Source: Eubacteriales bacterium
GTDB lineage: Bacteria; Bacillota; Clostridia; Oscillospirales; CAG-382
DNA length: 64,000 bases
Assembly (NCBI GenBank): GCA_045652245.1
Contig: JAZRTY010000039.1
Location: forward strand, 4,214-68,213
Reading direction: 5' to 3'
Positions 202 to 50,953 of the stretch are shown here, piece after piece. The notes beneath the pieces were generated by a model that worked only from the letters and a program-made list of their open reading frames with translations, was not told the DNA's origin and did no database searches. Every line of letters begins with the position of its first letter. The stretch's first letter is position 1. The position numbers and the translations under genes were made by a program.

Positions 202-216
202 GTGCTTGTCAAATAA

Positions 217-380
217 TTGGTAGAGGCGCATTTTGTAAAGAGTAGTAAGAGTGGATTGACTGTTCCGTAGGTTTTAGCTCTTATCGAAAGGTACGGATGC
301 CGAAGTTGAAAGAAACGGACTTTCTGCTGGTTTCAGGGAAAATATCTCTGCGACTGTCGCATAATGCGGAGGGCTATCGG
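217..380 (+). ncRNA. Lysine riboswitch (L-box)
   Basis: Conserved motifs in order GGTAGAGGCGC, AGTAG, GAAAGG, GCCGAA, CTGG..AATA, GACTGTC, GGAGGGCTATC; directly upstream of dapA-dapB-lysA. Confidence 0.92.
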
Positions 381-473
381 AATAAATGGTGCAGAAGGTG
401 TATTTTTGCACAACGATTTTCAGCTCTTACCTTTTTTTGGTAAGATTTTTTTATTTTTGAAAGGAACAGGACT

Positions 474-10863: not shown

Positions 10864-10874
10864 ATCAAAGCTTG

Positions 10875-10970
10875 ATGTGCGATGAAGCGGGAGGTTGCGA
10901 GGATTGCGAGAGCAAAAACTCGGTAATTTCCGTGGAGTATGTCCGACAACCGGGCGACAGCAAATACTGA
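10875..10970 (+). ncRNA. rpsJ (S10 operon) ribosomal leader, Firmicutes type
   Basis: GATGAAGCGGGAGGTTGC...TTTCCGTGGAG-TATGTCCG...CGGGCGA resembles the conserved Bacillus/Clostridia rpsJ leader. Confidence 0.65.
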
Positions 10971-26987: not shown

Positions 26988-27332
26988 ATGCCAGGAACAA
27001 GAAAGCTTGGACGCCCGACAGCGCATAGAATGTCTATGCTCAGAGGTCTTGTAACAGCGCTTTTCGAGAACGGAAAGCTTGAAACAACAGTTACAAGAGC
27101 AAAAGAAGTCAGTGCGCTTGCAGATAAAATGATAACACTTGGCAAGAGTGGAACTCTTGCAGACAGAAGACAGGCACTTTCCTTTATCACAAAGGAAGAT
27201 GTAGTAACAAAGCTCTTTGCTGAAATCGCCCCCAGCTATGCTGAAAGAAACGGCGGTTACACAAGAGTACTCAAGACAGGACCTCGCCGTGGCGACGGTG
27301 CTGAAATGGCTATAATCGAGCTTGTAAAGTAA
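26988..27332 (+). CDS. rplQ: 50S ribosomal protein L17
   Basis: RKLGR and [14 protein letters not shown] motifs. Confidence 0.99.
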
Positions 27333-27345
27333 TATGTGTTTATAG

Positions 27346-27372
27346 GAACCCCCTGATTTTTCAGGGGGTTTG
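27346..27372 (+). terminator. Terminator of the S10-spc-alpha cluster
   Basis: AACCCCCTGA-TTTT-TCAGGGGGTT followed by a T-rich tail. Confidence 0.8.
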
Positions 27373-27391
27373 TCTTTCTTGAAAGATTGAG

Positions 27392-27466
27392 ACTCCCTCA
27401 GTCTCGCTGCGTTCGACAGCTCCCTCGGCGAGGGAGGTGGCAAGGCGCAGCCTTGACGGAAGGAGT
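27392..27466. repeat. REP-like double-hairpin element, family A, upstream of DUF559
   Basis: ACTCCCTCAGTC..GACAGCTCCCTC-GGC-GAGGGAG fused to GTGGC..GACGGAAGGAGT. Confidence 0.85.
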
Positions 27467-27486
27467 AACATTATAAAAGGGGAAAA

Positions 27487-27834
27487 ATGTCATTAAAATA
27501 CAACGGAAAACTGATAGAATATGCAAAAAGCCTTCGTAAAGAAATGACAACACAGGAAAAGCATCTTTGGTACGATTTTTTAAGAATATCTCCTGTGAGA
27601 TTTCAAAGACAGAAGGCAATAGGAAATTATATTGTTGATTTTTATTGTCACCAGGCAAAACTTGTAATAGAACTTGACGGTTCACAGCATTGTGAAGATA
27701 AACAACATGAATATGACAATAAAAGAAGTAGAGAATTAGAGGAAATGGGTATCAGGGTAGTAAGATTTACTAATCTTGAAATAGATACTCAATTTGACGA
27801 GGTCTGTGAAATAATAGCTTCCCTTATTGAGTAA
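27487..27834 (+). CDS. DUF559 / Vsr-like PD-(D/E)XK endonuclease domain protein
   Basis: AKSLRKEMT.QE..LW, FQRQ..IG.YIVDFYC, LVIELDGSQH, D..R...L...G..V.RF.N signature. Confidence 0.9.
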   Translation: MSLKYNGKLIEYAKSLRKEMTTQEKHLWYDFLRISPVRFQRQKAIGNYIVDFYCHQAKLVIELDGSQHCEDKQHEYDNKRSRELEEMGIRVVRFTNLEIDTQFDEVCEIIASLIE

Positions 27835-27989
27835 ACTCCCTCAGTCTCACTGCGTTCGACAGCTCCCTCGGAGAGGGAGCCTTTTAGCCTTCCTCTGTGA
27901 GGAAGGTGGATTTGCCGAAGGCAAAGACGGAAGGAGTAAACTCCCTCAGTCAAAAACAAGTTTTTGACAGCTCCCTCGGCGAGGGAGCC
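27835..27989. repeat. Three alternating family A REP-like units downstream of DUF559
   Basis: Forward unit 27835-27881, inverted-type unit 27887-27937, forward unit 27940-27989. Confidence 0.88.
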
Positions 27990-28512
27990 TTAATTACAAT
28001 ATATGGTATGCTGTGAAAAACGGCACCACAAGAAAAGAGTATGTTTACAATCAAGCCCATGGTTGTTTGCAGATTGTTTATCTATTTTTTTAAAATTATG
28101 ATATAATGATTATGTGCAAGGATTGGATAAAATTTGCAAAATGCACAAAATTAGGTGTTGGTTTTGTTGAAGTTCAACAAAAGTTGTCGAACAACACCCG
28201 GTGAATGTCATTTTTGCGATTTTTGTTCAATTCACAATTTATCCAAATTGCAAAGAGTCGTGAATTTTTTTCCGGCTCGGATAATACTTTGTATTGTGGG
28301 CAAAGAAAAAAGTACAATTTATTATTATTCAAGATTAAAAATATGTATTTAGGAGGCGATATTGGCGCAAAAACACCCCTTTCCTGTTTTTCGTTGCGAC
28401 GGAAAGGGCAAAATGTGCAACGGGACTGTGACCACTGCAGAGACAGTGGCGGGGGCATTTAAAATATTTATTAAATGCGAAAAAATCGTTATTTTTGAAA
28501 GGAGAAAATACG

Positions 28513-31500
28513 ATGAAATTTAAAAGAATTTTGTCTGCTGTGCTTTGCGTACTGATGCTTACTTCAAGCTTCGTGTTTACTGCAAATGCGGCAGGTGAAA
28601 CAGGAACAGTTCTGACAACATTGTATTCTTCAGCTAAGGGTACAACCACCAACATATATGTTGAAGGACTCAATTATGATAACATCCAGTTGTCAGAAAG
28701 TGGAGAATATACCTATTCCAAGATACTTTACAAAGACGCAAGTGCAACGAGAGTTCAAATATCTCCAACCCTCTCTAATGGTGTTTATAATCCGGCGGTA
28801 CCATCGACTAATGGTTTTACCGTTGCAGTTCTGCTTAAGAGGAACGAGAGTTTTGCAGAATATCTTAAAGAAAAAGGCATCAGCGAAACCAACCTTTATT
28901 TTGTTGCCTACGACAAGGATTCCGCTCCTGTTTTGCATACTAAGAATGACTCTGCTAATAACCCTTTGCAAACATATGAGTTTGACGATGGTTATACACT
29001 TTATGTGGCGAGCGAGTCTGATAATGTAGATTATTTGTCATCTCTTTCAGTTTTCCCATATTCCAATACTCACTACAACCAAGGTACCACTCATATGACA
29101 AATTACTTTACAGATGCGGAACATTCCGATGAGTCTGTAGTTGATGTAATCGGATGGGCTGTTTATGATGGTACTGTAACCGATATGGAGGCTATGGCGG
29201 CTGATATCAAGACTATGTCTTTGGGAACTAACATCTATGTATCACCCACAGGTGTTAATACCTATTCAGGTTTTTCACCCAGTGCACCTGTAAAGACACT
29301 TTCTCAGGCAAATACACTTATCCAAAATTGTCTTAAAGCTGATATTTATGATGAAAATACAACAGTTACAATTCACGTAATGGATGGCTTTGATGCAACT
29401 CATGTTGTTTTCAAAAGCGATACTGGCTCTGTTACACTTCCGATAGAAGACGGAAAAGTCACTATAAACAGTAACTTAGTTAGAGATATTTCAGAATATG
29501 ATGTTACCTTTGCAAAGATGTATAATGTAACAGTTACAGGTGGTAAAGCAGAGCCTGCAACAGTAGAGCATGGCGCAAACGTTGTAATCACAATTAATGA
29601 CTACGATGCAAATGCTAAGACTTATACAGTTACTGTAAACAATGTAGCAACAGATGTTGTTATTGACGAAAATGGTAAGTTTACTCTTACAAATATCACA
29701 GAAGTAACTAATGTTGTTATTTCTTCAACTGCTCAGACACGTACAGTTAGTGTAGTTGCTGACCCGACAGAGGGTGGTACAGTTTCAGGTCTCGAAAACG
29801 AGGGCGTATACAACGTTGGCGCAACCGTAACTCTTACAGCCGTACCTGAAGAAGGCTACAAGTTCCTTTACTGGACAGAGAGCGACGAAGAAGTTTTAAG
29901 AGACGCAACAATCAGCTTTACAGCAACTGCAAACAGAAACCTTGTAGCTGTTTTCGAAGAAATTACCTACACAGTAACAGTTATTGCCGGAGACGGTGGA
30001 GAAGTTGAAGAACTTGCTTCTGCAACTGTTCGTGTGGGAACAGAAGTAACTATCAATGCAACACCTGATGAAGCTTATAGCTTTGACGGTTGGTATGATG
30101 GTGATGAAAAGGTTTCTTCTGATGCTGAATATACATTTACAGTTAATGATGATGTATCACTCACAGCTAAGTTTACAAAGAAGACTTGTACAGTAAGTGT
30201 TACTGGTGGTACACCTGCAGAGTCAACAGTAGAATATGGTGATGATCTTGAAATCACAATTCCTGACTATGATGCAAACGCTAACACATACACAATTACT
30301 GTAAACAACGAACCTGCAGAAGTTACAGTTTCTGCTGAAGGTAAGTTCACTCTTACAAATATCACAGAAACAACTACTGTTGTTATTTCAACAGCTACCC
30401 AGACTCGTACAGTTACAGTAAATGTTGACCCGACAGAGGGTGGTACAGTTGATGGTGCTGGTGTATACAACTACGGTGCAGATGTAACTGTTACAGCTAC
30501 AGCAAACGAAGGTTACGATTTTGTTAGCTGGACAAAAGATGGCGAAGAAGTTTCAACATCTGCAGAATTCACATTTACAGCAAATGCTAATGTTACTCTT
30601 ACAGCTAACTTCAAACCTCTGACATTTAGTGTAATATTCTATGCAAACGGTGGCAGTGGAGCTCCGGATAGTATTGAAGTGAAATACGGAGAAGAGGTTG
30701 ATCTTTCTGAGTATATTCCTACTCTTGAAGGAAGCGACTTCGCAGGCTGGGAAGATCTAGAATCAGAGAATCCAATCACAATTACCGATAACAAGTTCAC
30801 AATGCCCGCAAAAAATGTAACACTTACAGCTAAGTTTACAAAGAAGACTTATACTGTAACATTCGATGCAGGCGAAGGTAAGTTTGCAAATGGTGAGTCA
30901 ACATATGTAGTAGAAAATGTTGAACACGGAAAAGATATTTCAACTCTCGTTCCGACAGAAACCCCTGAAAAGGCTTCTAACGAAACAACCAACTTTAAAT
31001 TTGACGGTTGGGATTATGAAATAGGTGCAACGGTTGTTGGTGAAACTGTTATCAGTGCGAAGTATGAAGAAACAACCAGAACATACGGTGTTACATTCTA
31101 CCCGAACTACGATGGTGGTGTAGAAAACGTAGAAAACTTCTATGCTTACAATGCTATAATCGATAATGCTCCTGAATTTACAAGAACAGGTTACACATTC
31201 GCAGGTTGGGCAACAGATGCAAATGGTAGTAAGCTTGAAACACTCCCTGCAGTAACAGGTGAGGCAGTATACTATGCACTCTGGACAATCAACCAGTATG
31301 AAGTAAAATTTGTAGCTGAAGACCAAGAGGTTATTACTAAGACGGTTGATCACGGAAAGACAGTTGATGTTCTTCCGGAAGCTCCTGAATATGACCACAA
31401 GACATTCTCTAAGTGGATGTATGCAGGTGCAGAATTTACAACAGATATAGAGATTACAGAATCTATTACAGTTGAGGCTCTTTATATAAGTGAAGAACTG

Positions 31501-34413
31501 CTTACAGTTTCATTTGAAACTCTTTATGGTGGTCCTCTTGTAGATGTAGAAGATTATGCAGGTGAAACTATTGAGCTTGCTACTCTTGAACATGAAGGCT
31601 ATACATTTGAAGGTTGGTTTGATGGTGGAACTAAGGTATCGTCACCTTACACTATTACAAAAACTGTAACACTTACAGCTAAGTTCTTTGAAAATATCGC
31701 TAAGATTGGTGATACAAACTATCCTTCTCTCGAAGCAGCAGTTGCAGCTGCAGATCCTGATGCTGAAGTTGTTCTTCTTAAGGATGCTTCCGGCAACGGT
31801 ATTGTAATTAATAAGGACATTACAATTAACCTCGGTGGAAACACATACACAATCGACGGTGAAACAGTTGGTTCAGCAGGAACTGAGACACTTGGCTTCC
31901 AGCTCCTCAAGAACAACAATATCAAAATTGAGAACGGTACAATCAAATCTTCTATAGCAAAGATGCTCGTTCAGAACTATTCAAATCTTACACTTGACGG
32001 TGTAACACTTGACGGTTCAGAGCTTGTTCAAAGTGAAATAGGCTACTACACACTTTCAAACTGCAACGGAAATGTTGTAATTAAGAATTCTACAATTATA
32101 GCACACGAGAATGGAGTTGCATTTGACGTAGATTATCAGAGTAGCTATCCGAGCGGCGTAAAGGTAACTCTTACAGGAACTACAGAAATCATAGGCGCAA
32201 TTGAGTATGAAGCTAACGAAAAGAACTCTCTTGCAAAAGAAGAATCAGTTGTTCTTGAAGCTCCCGAAGGCTACGAATGGAACGACGAAGGAGTTCTTGT
32301 AGTAGTTAAGGTTATTGAAGGCGAAACTAATATTGGCGAAGTTGAAATTTCAAAGCCTGAAGCACCTGACGAAAATATTAAAATCGAAGTTACAACACCT
32401 GGTGAAGAAGGCGAGGATGCAAAACCCGAAATCAGCATTACTCTTCCTGCAAATACTGTTGTAACAGATAAGATTGAAAAAGTTACAGTTAATGATGTAA
32501 CAGAAGATGAAAGCAAATATCCTGATAGCATTTCAGATCCTCTGGATGTAAAGAAGGTATTTGAAATTGAAATTAAGGATGAAGACGGTGAAGCTGTTTA
32601 CGATGCTACTAACAATGAAGCAATCGTAGTAACAATTCCTTACGAGCAGCAGAATTCTGACAGACGTATTGTTATCTATCACGATGATGTAAGACTTACA
32701 CAGGTAGATTCGCTTGCTGACTTGGAAATCGGATACTTCTATTACGATGCGGAAGCTAAAGAAGTAACAATTAATGTTGCACATTTCTCAATAATCACAA
32801 TTGTTGAGGAAGATAAAAACGATTATATCCTTACAATTGATGCTACAACAGCGTATGACAAGGATGACACAGTTTACGTTATAGGTGACACTGTTACAGT
32901 AACTATTGGTGTTAAGTCTGATAAAGAAAAGACTCAGTATGCGGGAATATCTTATGAACTTAAATATGATGCAAGTGTTCTTAAGTATACCGGAACTAAT
33001 AGCGCATCTAATGGAGTTGTTTACAAAAAGAACATTTCAGGAGAAGATGTAGTTATTGGTACAGAATATACTGAAACATTTAAGGTTATTGGTACTTTTG
33101 ACAGTAAGGCATTTACAGTAATCGGTTCTGTTCTTGAAAACTTTGATGCATCATGGGAACCTCAGATGAACGCTCCTGTTGAAGGTCCTGCAACAATCTA
33201 CTTCCTTGAACCTTACACAATCACATATGAAAATATGGATGGCGCAACACATGAAGAAGGATATCCTACAAAGCATACTTACGGTACAGCAACAGTACTT
33301 AAGGATGCAACAAAGACAGGATATACATTCGATGGCTGGTATGCAGATGCTGGATTCACAGGTAACGAAGTAACAGAACTTGCAGCAGATGGTTATACAG
33401 CAGCTATTACTCTCTATGCTAAGTGGACAGTAAACAAGTACAATGTAACATTTAACGCAGACGGTGGAACCACAGTTGACGATATGACTGATGTTCCATA
33501 CGGAACAGAAGTTGATGTATCTAGACTTATACCTACAAAGACAGGCTACACATTCGCAGGATGGGTAGATACAGCAACAGATGATGCAGTTACAGTTACA
33601 GAAGGCAAGTTCGCAATGCCCGACAGAGCAGTAGCACTTAAGGCAACATGGGATCTCGTAGAATATTCAGTAAGCTATACACATACTAGCGGTTCAACAG
33701 GTGATATAGCTGATATAATCTTTGCTAATGCTCCCGATGAAGCAAATATCGAAAACGCACTTGAAATTACCCCGGTAATGGATACAACTAAGTATAGCTA
33801 CGCATTCCAGTATAAGATTGGTGATGGCGACTTTACTGATATTCCTCTGACAGACGGAAAACTCGTATTTGAAGTTGGTTCAGTTGTTGCAGATGTTTAT
33901 GTAGATGTTGTTCGTACACCTCTGTTCCAGGTTAAGGTTTATAATGAATTTGTAAATGGTTATGCTCTTGTTATCGCTTATGGTAACGAAACTGGTGCAT
34001 ATACATTCGATATGAACTCTGTTGAATACGGTATGTATAGAACAGCTCATTATGATGACAATGAAGAAATAACTTGTGCTCATGCATTTGTACTCAGAGC
34101 AGCTGCAGACTTCGACGAAGAGGATGCATTTGAGCTCATTTCCTACGATGCGAATGCAACAGCAGATGCTATTGAAATTAAGACAGCAGAGCCTGACCTT
34201 AATGAAGATGAACTTGTTGGTATAAATGATGTTGGTGCAGTTTACTACTCATGGACGGCTGACGAAACAAGGGAAGTGGATTGTCCAGATTATGCTACTT
34301 ATGTTGAAAGATTGTTGAATTCTGACCTCGATCCTGACAAGGAAATCGATGGAGGCGACGTAACAGTTGTAACAGATTACACAGGTTTTCAATATAGCGT
34401 ACCTCAGTCATAA
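28513..34413 (+). CDS. Large secreted surface protein with InlB-B/Listeria-Bacteroides repeats, a cohesin-like module and a C-terminal dockerin-like module
   Basis: Signal peptide MKFKRILSAVLC..ANA; many GYxFxGW..L.A.(F/W) repeats; GDTVTVTIGV..YAGISYELKYDASVL; DLNEDELVGIND..DLDPDKEIDGGD at the C-terminus. Confidence 0.85.
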   Translation: MKFKRILSAVLCVLMLTSSFVFTANAAGETGTVLTTLYSSAKGTTTNIYVEGLNYDNIQLSESGEYTYSKILYKDASATRVQISPTLSNGVYNPAVPSTNGFTVAVLLKRNESFAEYLKEKGISETNLYFVAYDKDSAPVLHTKNDSANNPLQTYEFDDGYTLYVASESDNVDYLSSLSVFPYSNTHYNQGTTHMTNYFTDAEHSDESVVDVIGWAVYDGTVTDMEAMAADIKTMSLGTNIYVSPTGVNTYSGFSPSAPVKTLSQANTLIQNCLKADIYDENTTVTIHVMDGFDATHVVFKSDTGSVTLPIEDGKVTINSNLVRDISEYDVTFAKMYNVTVTGGKAEPATVEHGANVVITINDYDANAKTYTVTVNNVATDVVIDENGKFTLTNITEVTNVVISSTAQTRTVSVVADPTEGGTVSGLENEGVYNVGATVTLTAVPEEGYKFLYWTESDEEVLRDATISFTATANRNLVAVFEEITYTVTVIAGDGGEVEELASATVRVGTEVTINATPDEAYSFDGWYDGDEKVSSDAEYTFTVNDDVSLTAKFTKKTCTVSVTGGTPAESTVEYGDDLEITIPDYDANANTYTITVNNEPAEVTVSAEGKFTLTNITETTTVVISTATQTRTVTVNVDPTEGGTVDGAGVYNYGADVTVTATANEGYDFVSWTKDGEEVSTSAEFTFTANANVTLTANFKPLTFSVIFYANGGSGAPDSIEVKYGEEVDLSEYIPTLEGSDFAGWEDLESENPITITDNKFTMPAKNVTLTAKFTKKTYTVTFDAGEGKFANGESTYVVENVEHGKDISTLVPTETPEKASNETTNFKFDGWDYEIGATVVGETVISAKYEETTRTYGVTFYPNYDGGVENVENFYAYNAIIDNAPEFTRTGYTFAGWATDANGSKLETLPAVTGEAVYYALWTINQYEVKFVAEDQEVITKTVDHGKTVDVLPEAPEYDHKTFSKWMYAGAEFTTDIEITESITVEALYISEELLTVSFETLYGGPLVDVEDYAGETIELATLEHEGYTFEGWFDGGTKVSSPYTITKTVTLTAKFFENIAKIGDTNYPSLEAAVAAADPDAEVVLLKDASGNGIVINKDITINLGGNTYTIDGETVGSAGTETLGFQLLKNNNIKIENGTIKSSIAKMLVQNYSNLTLDGVTLDGSELVQSEIGYYTLSNCNGNVVIKNSTIIAHENGVAFDVDYQSSYPSGVKVTLTGTTEIIGAIEYEANEKNSLAKEESVVLEAPEGYEWNDEGVLVVVKVIEGETNIGEVEISKPEAPDENIKIEVTTPGEEGEDAKPEISITLPANTVVTDKIEKVTVNDVTEDESKYPDSISDPLDVKKVFEIEIKDEDGEAVYDATNNEAIVVTIPYEQQNSDRRIVIYHDDVRLTQVDSLADLEIGYFYYDAEAKEVTINVAHFSIITIVEEDKNDYILTIDATTAYDKDDTVYVIGDTVTVTIGVKSDKEKTQYAGISYELKYDASVLKYTGTNSASNGVVYKKNISGEDVVIGTEYTETFKVIGTFDSKAFTVIGSVLENFDASWEPQMNAPVEGPATIYFLEPYTITYENMDGATHEEGYPTKHTYGTATVLKDATKTGYTFDGWYADAGFTGNEVTELAADGYTAAITLYAKWTVNKYNVTFNADGGTTVDDMTDVPYGTEVDVSRLIPTKTGYTFAGWVDTATDDAVTVTEGKFAMPDRAVALKATWDLVEYSVSYTHTSGSTGDIADIIFANAPDEANIENALEITPVMDTTKYSYAFQYKIGDGDFTDIPLTDGKLVFEVGSVVADVYVDVVRTPLFQVKVYNEFVNGYALVIAYGNETGAYTFDMNSVEYGMYRTAHYDDNEEITCAHAFVLRAAADFDEEDAFELISYDANATADAIEIKTAEPDLNEDELVGINDVGAVYYSWTADETREVDCPDYATYVERLLNSDLDPDKEIDGGDVTVVTDYTGFQYSVPQS

Positions 34414-38846: not shown

Positions 38847-38964
38847 GCCTTCTCCTTGAGGAGAAGGTGGGTTTTGCGAAGCAAAACTCGGATGAGGCGG
38901 AACATTAAAGGTGAAATAACCCCTCATCAGTCACTCCGTGACAGCTTCCCCCAAAGGGGAAGCC
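38847..38964. repeat. REP-like doublet, family B, copy 1
   Basis: GCCTTCTCCTTGAGGAGAAGGTGG..CGGATGAGG, spacer, CCTCATCAGTC..GACAGCTTCCCC..GGGGAAGCC. Confidence 0.88.
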
Positions 38965-40751: not shown

Positions 40752-40866
40752 GCCTTCCCCCTCGGGGGAAGGTGGGTTTGCGTAAGCAAACTCGGATGAG
40801 GGGACATTAACGGCGAAATAACCCCTCATCAGTCACTCCGTGACAGCTTCCCCCCAAGGGGAAGCC
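40752..40866. repeat. REP-like doublet, family B, copy 2
   Basis: Near-identical to 38847-38964, including the spacer ACATTAA..GAAATAACCCCTCATCAGTCACTCCGTGACAGC. Confidence 0.88.
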
Positions 40867-43873: not shown

Positions 43874-44083
43874 GCCTTCCCCTTGAGGGGTAACGAAGTG
43901 GCGACGAGGTAGTGAATGACAGCCCGGTGCGGCTGTCAGAGCCGAGTCGGACCGAGCCGCAGCGAGACAGGTGGGTTTTGCGAAGCAAAACTCGGATGAG
44001 GTGGAAATTGTGTTGTGTGAAATATTAGAATAAACACCTCATCAGTCTCGCCTTGCTCGACAGCTTCCCCTCAAGGGGAAGCC
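43874..44083. repeat. REP-like doublet, family B, copy 3, with a nested ~78-nt insertion
   Basis: GCCTTCCCCTTGAGGGG|insert|AGGTGGGTTTTGCGAAGCAAAACTCGGATGAGG .. CCTCATCAGTC..GACAGCTTCCCCTCAAGGGGAAGCC. Confidence 0.85.
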
Positions 44084-50843: not shown

Positions 50844-50900
50844 ATACAAAACAGTATAAAGTTGGAATTATGGGGGATATAACAAATTCTTGCGAATTTC

Positions 50901-50953
50901 CCCCTCATCCGAGTTTTGTTACGCAAAACCCACCTTCCCCCGAGGGGGAAGGC
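50901..50953. repeat. REP-like single unit, family B, copy 4 (inverted)
   Basis: CCCCTCATCCGAGTTTTG..CAAAACCCACCTTCCCCCGAGGGGGAAGGC, the reverse complement of the unit at 40752. Confidence 0.85.

What the first reader, a model, noticed from the sequence alone, without database searches (positions are those of the whole stretch)
27392..27989. DUF559 endonuclease embedded in REP-like double hairpins that are dispersed across the window: a REPtron-like system without a RAYT
Seen: a lone 115-aa DUF559 gene right after the ribosomal operon terminator is flanked by one fused element upstream and three alternating units downstream, the first starting at the base after its stop codon. Each unit has a pyrimidine leader (CTCCCTCA/CTCCTTCC), a variable hairpin 1, a single A, and hairpin 2 with a short loop. 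The same architecture with leader CCTCATC(A/C) recurs without any gene at 38847, 40752, 43874 and 50901, mostly as inverted doublets. Hairpin 2 covaries (TCCCTC/GAGGGA, TTCCTC/GAGGAA, TTCTCC/GGAGAA, TTCCCC/GGGGAA). In family A the leader CTCCCTC equals the 5' arm of hairpin 2, allowing an alternative fold. Established: REP/BIME families are usually tied to HUH RAYT transposases flanked by their REPs, whereas DUF559 is a Vsr-like PD-(D/E)XK fold. Inference: DUF559 may be the cognate nuclease that recognises or spreads this repeat family, forming an autonomous/non-autonomous pair.
Basis: partly seen in the sequence, partly recalled or inferred. Interest (0 to 1): 0.85.

Follow-up and report, generated by a model that had tools for sequence, protein, structure and literature searches.

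The report
DUF559 nuclease nested in triplex repeats
A small DUF559 nuclease gene sits inside copies of a dispersed double-hairpin DNA repeat, and the same pairing recurs in many bacteria, which suggests that this unexplained nuclease family is the partner enzyme of the equally unexplained BoxC/triplex-motif repeats.

Summary
ORF 27487-27834 is a DUF559 (PF04480) protein. A covariance model finds five repeat units around it and six more in the window.

The units are not classical REPs. The leader is a mirror repeat of the hairpin-2 pyrimidine arm. That is the design of BoxC/PIT/TM intrastrand-triplex motifs (Holder 2015), here with an extra hairpin in the connecting loop.

The gene-repeat link is general:
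- The genome's second DUF559 copy has the same layout.
- 85 of 96 homolog loci carry units.
- Unit density is 5.4/kb beside the gene and 0.22/kb further out.
- 16 of 18 DUF559 loci from other phyla, E. coli ycjD included, carry such hairpins.

Across 151 genomes of the order, 37 of 39 with DUF559 have units, against 27 of 112 without it. Y1 transposases do not track the repeats.

Repeat subtype follows the protein clade. The catalytic-type residues are invariant.

Best reading: a REPtron-like module with DUF559 as cognate nuclease. Activity on the repeats is inferred, not shown. I found no paper making this link.

The parts
26988..27332 (+). Upstream neighbour, an rplQ-like ORF at the end of the ribosomal operon. 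Context only.
   Evidence: ORF list. The homology of relatives stops at its stop codon.
27346..27371 (+). Terminator-like hairpin followed by a T-rich tail.
   Evidence: Consensus scan.
27391..27437 (+). Repeat unit in direct orientation (leader ACTCCCTCAG, imperfect hairpin 1, hairpin 2 GCTCCCTC/GAGGGAG). It is fused to the next unit through a shared hairpin 2.
   Evidence: R1 match, 24.1 bits, E 3.8e-5. Fold z -4.4 for 27385-27475.
27419..27465 (-). Repeat unit in inverted orientation. Its leader complement GACGGAAGGAG faces the gene.
   Evidence: R1 match, 27.9 bits. Also found by the parser.
27487..27834 (+). DUF559 gene, 115 aa, with a Vsr-like PD-(D/E)XK fold.
   Evidence: PF04480 at E 6.6e-33. 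PDB 3HRL at E 8.2e-16. R17 T21 E24 W28 Q42 D51 E62 D64 G65 H68 R80 N96 are invariant in 43 aligned relatives.
27834..27880 (+). Repeat unit in direct orientation. It begins at the last base of the stop codon.
   Evidence: R1 match, 33.9 bits.
27888..27936 (-). Repeat unit in inverted orientation (leader TCCTTCCGTC, hairpin 1 TTTGCC/GGCAAA, tail TCCA, hairpin 2 CCTTCCTC/GAGGAAGG).
   Evidence: R1 match, 28.8 bits. Fold z -3.5.
27939..27988 (+). Repeat unit in direct orientation with a perfect hairpin 1.
   Evidence: R1 match, 37.7 bits. Fold z -5.4.
38848..38963 (.). Gene-less head-to-head doublet of the abundant CCTCATC family: inverted unit, about 20 nt of spacer, direct unit.
   Evidence: R1 matches at 38848-38897(-) and 38917-38963(+). 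Fold z -5.9.
40753..40865 (.). Second gene-less head-to-head doublet.
   Evidence: R1 matches at 40753-40801(-) and 40819-40865(+).
43874..44082 (.). Third doublet. The inverted unit is split in its hairpin-2 3' arm by a 78-nt insert at 43891-43968. The direct unit lies at 44037-44082.
   Evidence: Sequence. R1 match at 44037-44082.
50898..50952 (+). Single unit of the CCTCATCCGAG type.
   Evidence: R1 match, 19.9 bits, E 6e-4.

Best explanation
The DUF559 gene and its flanking double-hairpin units form one REPtron-like module.

Layout. A small Vsr-like PD-(D/E)XK nuclease gene lies in the spacer of a head-to-head pair of intrastrand-triplex-type repeats. These are relatives of BoxC/PIT/TM motifs with an added hairpin in the connecting loop. 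The upstream inverted unit supplies the Shine-Dalgarno-like sequence. The downstream unit abuts or overlaps the stop codon.

Shown here. The module recurs across genomes and phyla. Its repeat subtype follows the protein clade. It is present or absent at otherwise conserved sites in congeneric genomes. Unit-rich genomes are those that carry DUF559, not those that carry Y1 transposases.

Inferred. DUF559 is the cognate nuclease of the repeats. It would recognise the pyrimidine/purine motif or the folded (hairpin or triplex) form and nick it. The nicks would drive copying or recombination. That would spread the units, gene-less doublets and the gene itself, and would make such loci unstable.

Whether the enzyme mobilises the units or homes into them is not resolved.
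For: 1. Second copy in this genome. C3:48-365 has an inverted unit whose leader complement GGATGAGGTGG ends 2 nt before the ATG, and a direct unit right after the stop.

2. Homolog loci. In the 96 loci examined, 81 of 98 genes have a pyrimidine-arm hairpin within 100 nt on at least one side, and 38 have one on both sides. Hairpins per 50-nt bin are 0.40 (upstream) and 0.56 (downstream) next to the gene, against about 0.01 beyond 300 nt.

3. Strict unit parser.
- 85 of 96 loci hold at least one unit.
- 42 of 96 genes have an inverted unit within 60 nt upstream. In 33 of those 42 it ends 1-8 nt before the ATG.
- 53 of 96 have a direct unit starting within 60 nt of the stop, and 29 have both.

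4. Density. 154 units in 28.4 kb beside the gene, against 51 in 228.5 kb of the remaining locus sequence. The whole genome G000 has 53 units. Relatives' rplQ loci have 0 in 41 kb. Y1_Tnp loci: 0 of 10 with a unit.

5. Thirty-one relatives. All 11 genomes with DUF559 have 8-89 units. Of the 20 without, 13 have none, four have 1-3, and three have 17-58.

6. Order sample of 151 genomes. At least one unit in 37 of 39 DUF559+ genomes against 27 of 112 DUF559- genomes. At least five units in 28 of 39 against 10 of 112. Fisher p is 1.5e-15 and 1.3e-13, and kin are not independent. In genomes with only 2-4 units, one of them lies beside the gene (G058, G143 and G122).

7. Subtype follows the protein. 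The only four rows with CTTCYYC-type units form one clade with 99% SH-aLRT support, and it includes this genome's C3 copy. The window copy sits elsewhere with CTCCCT-type units. Label changes on the tree are 21, against a shuffled mean of 29.8, and 0 of 500 shuffles reach 21.

8. Presence/absence. In G005 and G001, DUF559 plus units lie between genes that are 24-40 nt apart, with no repeat, in G000. None of 11 relatives has it after rplQ.

9. Other phyla. 16 of 18 DUF559 loci have such hairpins within 350 nt: 33 hairpins against 0.46 in shuffles, maximum 3. E. coli K-12 ycjD has a strict TMECO-consensus match 168 nt from its stop. Strain KE47 has an inverted pair starting 25 nt after the homology.

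10. The enzyme looks intact. D51, E62, D64 and H68 are invariant.

11. Literature. Holder 2015 found no mobility gene near TM motifs but more rearrangement at those loci. Milman 2023 lists DUF559 among the annotations enriched in predicted inversion targets, odds ratio 14.3.
Against: - No biochemical or genetic result links the protein to the units.
- Units exist without a detectable DUF559: 27 of 112 genomes in the order sample (10 of them with at least 5 units) and G013, G014 and G015 among the relatives. Assemblies do break at units, so a short gene flanked by repeats may simply be lost from a MAG.
- 11 of 96 loci, and 2 of 18 loci in other phyla, show no unit.
- Two DUF559+ genomes (G048, G112) show no unit.
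- The two filled sites in G005 and G001 have units only downstream of the gene.
- Model R1 was trained on units taken from DUF559 loci. It may detect best the variants that travel with the gene, which would inflate the genome-level correlation.
- The 80 loci are one clade, 50-64% identical to the window protein.
- Related genomes are not independent samples.
- In E. coli K-12 only one of the 23 reported TMECOs lies next to ycjD.
- A Caulobacter DUF559 protein has been tied functionally to cytosine methylation rather than to repeats.
Confidence: 0.55

Rival explanations
1. DUF559 is a free-standing homing-type selfish gene that parasitises pre-existing triplex-type repeats. It would cut the spacer of gene-less head-to-head doublets and be copied in by repair. 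The repeats themselves would spread by some other, unknown means.
For: - The gene always lies in the spacer between inward-facing leaders, the same place that holds 20-40 nt in gene-less doublets.
- Units persist in genomes without DUF559.
- The Vsr/DUF559 clade includes a group I intron homing endonuclease (table row in Steczkiewicz 2012).
- The gene's position differs between congeners.
Against: - The empty sites seen in G000 hold no doublet at all.
- Genomes with only 2-4 units have one of them at the gene. This fits units arriving with the gene better than a gene seeking abundant targets.
- Spacer alignments gave no clear split target.
Confidence: 0.2
2. DUF559 here is a solitary Vsr-like mismatch-repair nuclease working with an unlinked cytosine methyltransferase. 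The flanking units would be incidental: repeats collecting in dispensable intergenic DNA, or hitch-hiking with a horizontally moving gene.
For: - Matthey 2026 (passages read) reports that a DUF559-domain protein of Caulobacter (VsrA) causes an SOS response when a solitary cytosine methyltransferase is deleted.
- DUF559 is homologous to Vsr.
Against: - The unit-to-ATG spacing is fixed: 33 of 42 within 1-8 nt.
- Units abut the stop codon.
- Repeat subtype follows the protein clade.
- The association holds across phyla.
- Density is about 24-fold higher than in the rest of the same loci.
- The genome already holds a weaker PF04480 hit on C33. Reading its sequence, I take it for a true Vsr beside a methylase gene. 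No tool tested this.
Confidence: 0.12
3. The units are cis-acting expression elements of the gene. They would sequester the SD and act as terminator-like insulators. The dispersed copies would be relics of decayed DUF559 insertions, with no nuclease action on them.
For: - The leader complement is SD-like and sits at SD distance from the ATG.
- Hairpin 2 is often followed by T-runs on its outer side.
- A DUF559 pseudogene with units exists in G001.
Against: - There are tens of near-identical gene-less units per genome: 43 or more in G000, up to 89 among relatives.
- Units also flank housekeeping genes.
- Maher's group found no promoter or terminator activity for PIT motifs, as cited in Holder 2015.
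Confidence: 0.08
4. The units are mobilised by a Y1 (RAYT/IS200-type) or other transposase encoded elsewhere. DUF559 would be a passenger.
For: - G000 has a Y1_Tnp fragment at a contig edge, C5:2-175.
- A 78-nt hairpin element is inserted at one fixed position of hairpin 2 in 5 of 5 copies. So some site-specific insertion activity does act on the units.
Against: - Y1_Tnp occurs in 5 of 14 unit-rich and 7 of 17 unit-poor relatives (Fisher p 1.0).
- Among the relatives, G005, G009, G021, G023 and G014 hold 48-89 units and have no Y1 match.
- 0 of 10 Y1 loci have units.
Confidence: 0.05

Closest known systems
BoxC / PIT / TM (TMECO) intrastrand-triplex motifs. Source: Holder et al. 2015, NAR, PMC4666352. 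I read the abstract, section 18 and found passages.
   Same: - Three blocks: pyrimidine block, short connector, mirror-related pyrimidine block, loop, purine block.
- Intergenic and dispersed in tens of copies.
- Often in inverted pairs that join two subtypes. E. coli pairs always combine type A with type B. Here the doublets join the CAGTC and CCGAG/CCGTC types.
- The E. coli consensus itself lies next to ycjD.
   Different: - In the Clostridial units a 13-19-nt hairpin replaces the N3 connector.
- The block sequences differ (CTCCCTC, CTTCCCC, CTCTCC).
- The paper reports no associated mobility gene and no common function of the flanking genes. The DUF559 link is not in it: the term is absent from the text.
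- Its supplementary tables of flanking genes could not be read.
REP/BIME or REPIN elements with RAYT (the 'REPtron'). Sources: Nunvar 2010, Ton-Hoang 2012, Bertels & Rainey 2011. Seen as search listings and abstracts only.
   Same: - A single- or low-copy nuclease gene flanked by inverted copies of a dispersed palindromic repeat.
- Gene-less inverted doublets.
- Repeat subtype matched to the enzyme.
   Different: - The enzyme is a PD-(D/E)XK Vsr-like protein, not an HUH Y1 transposase.
- No GTAG head is seen in the unit sequences listed.
- Y1 genes are unlinked to the units.
- The gene changes position between congeners, whereas RAYTs are described as mostly vertically inherited at one locus (abstract of the RAREFAN preprint).
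CGTC-tagged REPs. Source: Di Nocera et al. 2013, PMC3733652. Passages read.
   Same: - The paper states they 'apparently lack a dedicated transposase'.
- Hairpin 1 of the CCGTC-type units has a CGTC head, an A/T-starting stem and a (T)CCA tail, for example at 27888-27936.
   Different: - That paper lists no Firmicutes.
- Its elements are single hairpins without the triplex-type hairpin 2.
- Its figure with the consensus sequences is not held, so homology could not be tested.
Vsr and Vsr-like DUF559 proteins. Sources: E. coli Vsr; Caulobacter VsrA in Matthey 2026, PMC12907096 (passages read); PDB 3HRL.
   Same: The fold and the catalytic-type residues. 3HRL matches at E 8.2e-16. Steczkiewicz 2012 groups VSR, DUF559 and DUF2726 together.
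   Different: - No Vsr family appears among the Pfam matches at E <= 0.01.
- The window gene's neighbours are rplQ and a 1972-aa ORF, not a methyltransferase.
- It is flanked by repeats.

Membership tests
DUF559 (Pfam PF04480) | Profile score above the curated cut-off | tested here: met
   113.3 bits against 20.6, E 6.6e-33, covering residues 9-113.
DUF559 (Pfam PF04480) | Acidic and histidine residues of the PD-(D/E)XK/Vsr-like core are conserved | tested here: met
   D51, E62, D64 and H68 are invariant in 43 aligned relatives and at least 99% conserved in 94. Assigning them to catalysis rests on homology and recall, not on a call.
BoxC/PIT/TM intrastrand-triplex motif | Third block is a mirror repeat of the hairpin's pyrimidine arm, giving three consecutive triplex-forming blocks | tested here: met
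   Mirror score 5.90 of 7 against 4.98 +/- 0.04 when swapped between loci. 42% of 243 units are perfect.
BoxC/PIT/TM intrastrand-triplex motif | Short (N3) second loop and the consensus CCCTCNCCC-N3-6-GGGNGAGGG-N3-GGGNGAGGG | tested here: not met
   In the Clostridial units hairpin 1 (11-25 nt in the parsed units, most often 13-19) replaces N3. The strict consensus matched only the E. coli loci L113 and L172, out of 19 loci scanned. The window itself was not scanned with it.
BoxC/PIT/TM intrastrand-triplex motif | Forms a stable intramolecular triplex in vitro | not testable with these tools
   Only hairpin folding could be computed.
REP/BIME-RAYT REPtron | The associated gene is a Y1 HUH transposase flanked by the repeats | tested here: not met
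   0 of 10 Y1_Tnp loci have units. Genome counts show no correlation.
REP/BIME-RAYT REPtron | Dispersed palindromic units, often in inverted pairs, with a low-copy nuclease gene between inverted copies | tested here: met
Vsr (very short patch repair) | Match to the Vsr family and linkage to a cytosine-5 methyltransferase gene | tested here: not met
   Pfam lists DUF559, MTES_1575 and DUF2726 only. The neighbours are rplQ and a 1972-aa ORF.
CGTC-tagged REPs | CGTC head, 8-9-bp stem starting with A/T pairs, 4-5-nt loop, CCA tail | tested here: inconclusive
   Hairpin 1 of many CCGTC-type units shows the head and the CCA tail. The stems are 4-9 bp, and the published consensus figure is not held.

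The most novel reading that the evidence does not exclude
DUF559 proteins, including E. coli YcjD, are the missing dedicated enzymes of the BoxC/PIT/TM intrastrand-triplex repeats found in hundreds of bacterial genomes. On this reading they are structure- or sequence-specific PD-(D/E)XK nickases that create, spread and recombine these repeats. That would be a second, RAYT-independent REPtron-type system, and the cause of the genome instability reported at such loci.
Probability: 0.35. Interest if true: 0.9.

Novelty: new variant of a known kind. Interest (0 to 1): 0.8.

Why it matters
Two long-standing unknowns would explain each other.

- BoxC/PIT/TM motifs have been known in E. coli since the 1990s and occur in more than 260 genomes. 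They are linked to locus rearrangement. They have no known origin, function or mobilising enzyme (Holder 2015).
- DUF559 is a widespread nuclease-fold family. It has a solved structure (3HRL) but no established role. In the searched library 25 papers mention it, none in a title or abstract.

A cognate pair would add a non-HUH class to the REP/REPIN-RAYT paradigm. It would give a mechanism for repeat-linked genome plasticity. It is also directly testable in E. coli K-12 with ycjD and its neighbouring TMECO.

A practical point: these units break short-read assemblies, so they bias MAG gene content.

Tried and rejected
- Rfam. No family matched the units, either at gathering thresholds over the whole window or at E <= 5 over 27300-28100.
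- MAFFT alignments A1 and A2 of mixed-length units misplaced the 3' arm and were not used. A3, made of equal-length units, was used for R1.
- Homodimer prediction gave no support. It is not used as evidence either way.
- The look-up of sequencing runs listed no RNA holder and only small shares, at most 0.14.
- Read laying on 4 contig-type runs:
  - Contigs stop inside units.
  - A 435-nt contig in one run covers just the gene.
  - Two joints skip the gene, but with sides under 30 nt at 88% likeness. They are too weak to count.
- Spacer alignments were meant to tell whether gene-less doublets are deletion derivatives or target sites. They gave only scattered short matches and the question stays open.
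- rplQ-downstream 'empty site'. All 11 relatives lack the gene there, but what follows rplQ differs in each, so no exact junction could be read.
- Small contigs of G014 were checked for another enzyme between units. They hold ORFs of 595, 602 and 871 aa. I read them by eye as housekeeping genes, and no tool named them.
- A lenient DUF559 search in G013-G015, G027 and G030 found only weak hits inside large ORFs.
- The RefSeq table for E. coli K-12 lists no repeat features near ycjD. The TMECO there was found by pattern instead.
- The CGTC-REP link remains an untested lead.
- My relaxed three-block regular expression performed poorly and is not used.
- Papers' supplementary files were not consulted. 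Holder's Supplementary Table S2, on flanking genes, may bear on the ycjD point.
- Not found in print in the searched library: any link between DUF559 or YcjD and these repeats.
Full report
**What is there.**
The window ORF 27487-27834 encodes a 115-aa protein. It matches Pfam DUF559 at E 6.6e-33. It also matches the solved 'endonuclease-like protein' 3HRL at E 8.2e-16; Steczkiewicz 2012 gives Neisseria gonorrhoeae as its source. The ORF lies after the rplQ-like ORF and a terminator-like hairpin.

I built covariance model R1 from 19 equal-length units of other genomes. It finds 11 full units in the window. Five surround the gene. The first two share hairpin 2, and the third starts at the last base of the stop codon. 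Six lie elsewhere, mostly as inverted doublets. On 150 aligned matches, 98.5% of cells pair and 11 of 13 pairs show changes on both sides. Shuffles give 77.8% paired and slid partners 47-64%. That alignment was fitted to the model.

**What the repeat is.**
Each unit reads: leader, hairpin 1, 1-4 nt, hairpin 2 with a pure pyrimidine 5' arm. Across 243 non-duplicate units, the leader is the mirror image of that arm. The score is 5.90 of 7 matches, against 4.98 +/- 0.04 when leaders and arms are swapped between loci. A direct-copy reading scores 5.16 against 4.81 (one search gave the first hint).

A pyrimidine block, a connector, its mirror block, a loop and the complementary purine block make up the published design of BoxC/PIT/TM intrastrand-triplex motifs. 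The E. coli consensus is CCCTCNCCC-N3-6-GGGNGAGGG-N3-GGGNGAGGG. That motif has 23 copies in K-12, occurs in more than 260 genomes, is intergenic, and sits at loci that are more rearranged than controls. The authors 'never found' transposase or integrase remnants near it. Inverted pairs always combine type A with type B (Holder 2015; abstract, section 18 and passages). The Clostridial units are this design with a hairpin in place of the N3 connector. Their doublets likewise join two subtypes. Rfam has nothing on them.

**The gene-repeat link within this genome.**
G000 is 1.94 Mb in 47 contigs and 92% complete. It holds at least 43 units by R1, with only 150 of 664 candidates scored. My strict parser finds 53. 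It holds two full DUF559 genes.

The second gene, at C3:48-365, has the same layout with the abundant CCTCATC/CTTCCCC subtype. The inverted unit's leader complement GGATGAGGTGG ends 2 nt before the ATG. A direct unit starts right after the stop. The contig ends inside that unit.

The window copy carries a rarer subtype. The two leader words CTCCCTCAGTC and ACTCCTTCCGTC match 7 times in the genome, and 5 of those are at this gene. That subtype is common in a congener, G005. The third, weak PF04480 hit on C33 I read, from its sequence alone, as a true Vsr beside a methylase gene. No tool tested that.

**Across genomes.**
The search for related loci gave 80 loci, 50-64% identical to the window protein. 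Most are Oscillospirales. Pectinatus, Schwartzia, a Melainabacteria genome, a Dehalococcoidia MAG and a Desulfovibrionaceae MAG also appear. Relatives added 16 more loci.
- Of 98 genes, 81 have a pyrimidine-arm hairpin within 100 nt on at least one side.
- 85 of 96 loci hold a full unit by the strict parser.
- 42 of 96 genes have an inverted unit within 60 nt upstream. In 33 of those 42 it ends 1-8 nt from the ATG, so the leader complement (GGAGG-like) sits at Shine-Dalgarno distance.
- 53 of 96 have a direct unit starting within 60 nt of the stop, often overlapping the ORF end.
- Unit density is 5.4/kb within 150 nt of the gene. It is 0.22/kb in the rest of the same loci and 0.027/kb in G000 overall. 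Relatives' rplQ loci hold none in 41 kb.
- As a control family, none of 10 Y1_Tnp loci has a unit.

**Genome-level co-occurrence.**
Among 31 relatives, all 11 with DUF559 have 8-89 units. Of the 20 without, 13 have none, four have 1-3, and three have 17-58. Y1_Tnp is present in 5 of 14 unit-rich and 7 of 17 unit-poor genomes (Fisher p 1.0).

In an evenly drawn order sample of 151 genomes (94 genera), units occur in 37 of 39 DUF559+ genomes and 27 of 112 DUF559- genomes. At least five units occur in 28 of 39 against 10 of 112.

Caveats:
- Kin are not independent, and the two samples overlap.
- R1 was trained on units taken from DUF559 loci.
- At most 41-150 candidates were scored per genome.
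- Assemblies break at units. This can both hide the gene and lower the counts.

**Co-variation and mobility.**
On a tree of 96 proteins, the four rows with CTTCYYC-type units form one clade with 99% SH-aLRT support, and it includes the C3 copy. CTCTCC-type units cluster elsewhere. Label changes are 21 against a shuffled mean of 29.8, and 0 of 500 shuffles reach 21. The two paralogs of G000 thus each carry the subtype of their own clade.

In G005 and G001, DUF559 (a pseudogene in G001) plus downstream units lie between two conserved genes. In G000 those genes are separated by 24 and about 40 nt with no repeat. No relative has the gene after rplQ.

**Beyond Clostridia.**
tblastn against the plasmid collection gave 39 records, several of which are whole chromosomes or chromids. 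I examined 18 loci. Sixteen have pyrimidine-arm hairpins within 350 nt of the gene: 33 hairpins, against 0.46 in mononucleotide shuffles (maximum 3).
- With hairpins: N. gonorrhoeae, two Azospirillum, S. meliloti, another Sinorhizobium, Shinella, Sphingomonas, Sphingobium, Methylobacterium, Qipengyuania, Photobacterium, E. coli, Deinococcus, Synechocystis, Picosynechococcus, Pseudanabaena.
- Without: Novosphingobium, Thermoactinomyces.

In S. meliloti the gene lies between two inverted copies of a doublet. E. coli K-12 ycjD has a strict TMECO match 168 nt from its stop. Strain KE47 has an inverted TMECO pair starting 25 nt after the homology.

Milman 2023 lists 'DUF559 domain-containing protein' among the annotations enriched in predicted inversion targets, odds ratio 14.3. 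The section I read does not comment on it.

**How it most likely works.**
- Shown: a conserved module, an intact-looking nuclease (D51, E62, D64 and H68 invariant), subtype matching, presence/absence between congeners, and genome-level co-occurrence.
- Inferred: the protein recognises the motif or its folded form and nicks it, as Vsr nicks at a distorted site. Repair or recombination at the nick would copy units, doublets and the gene, and would destabilise such loci.

I put 0.55 on this cognate-nuclease reading. I put 0.2 on the narrower homing-into-repeats variant and 0.12 on an unrelated Vsr-like repair role, as proposed for Caulobacter VsrA. The rest goes to cis-regulatory or transposase-passenger readings.

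**Novelty.**
The motif class and the protein family are each known. The Clostridial double-hairpin form and, above all, the DUF559 link were not found in print in the searches. DUF559 occurs in 25 papers of the library, never in a title or abstract. The idea is directly testable in E. coli K-12.

Noticed in passing
window 43891-43968; also G000 C42:167615-167692, C37:39591-39668, C29:6571-6725, C12:13359-13513: A 78-nt hairpin-bearing element, about 155 nt in two copies, is inserted at exactly the same position in the hairpin-2 3' arm (GGGG^AAGG) of a unit in 5 of 5 copies. So hairpin 2 is a site-specific insertion target. It could be an IS200-type miniature element, or it could mark a cut site.
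   Followed up: partly
G000 C29:7075-7494 and C31:19825-20226: Two head-to-head unit pairs enclose 300-320 nt of related non-coding sequence instead of a gene. This is a larger MITE-like cargo of the same ends.
   Followed up: no
G000 C16:22740-22820, C31:19735-19820, C12:3595-3690, C4:2250-2315: Tandem arrays of 'CAATTCATG + short hairpin' abut the outer side of many units. The word CAATTCAT[GT] occurs 63 times in the genome, counting both strands.
   Followed up: no
G014 contigs C41-C47 (loci L156-L164); window 27393-27403 and 27431-27846 in public runs: Short-read assemblies break at the units. Small contigs carrying long ORFs (which I read by eye as housekeeping genes) end in units, and the DUF559 gene assembles as a 435-nt contig. 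MAGs may therefore lose repeat-flanked genes.
   Followed up: partly
G000 C33:71848-72260: A weak PF04480 hit (E 1.6e-6) lies just upstream of a gene that I read, from sequence and recall only, as a cytosine-5 methyltransferase. It is probably a genuine Vsr and has no units nearby.
   Followed up: no
G000 C5:2-175: A Y1_Tnp fragment sits at a contig edge, with no units in the next 1.6 kb.
   Followed up: partly
L100 (G001:C47:29351-29617): A DUF559 pseudogene with 3 in-frame stops is still followed by units, at a site that is empty in G000.
   Followed up: partly
window 213-384 and 10873-10957: A lysine riboswitch and an S10-Clostridia ribosomal-protein leader, both above Rfam gathering scores.
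   Followed up: no
window 28495-34413: A 1972-aa ORF with many repeated domains lies directly downstream. Each relative has different DNA after rplQ.
   Followed up: no
L106 (G004) downstream of rplQ: A tandem array of a roughly 60-nt GC-rich unit (…GGGGCTGCTCGCCCC…CGTCAGCCTTACGAAAGCGTG…) follows rplQ in a congener. It is a different repeat family.
   Followed up: no
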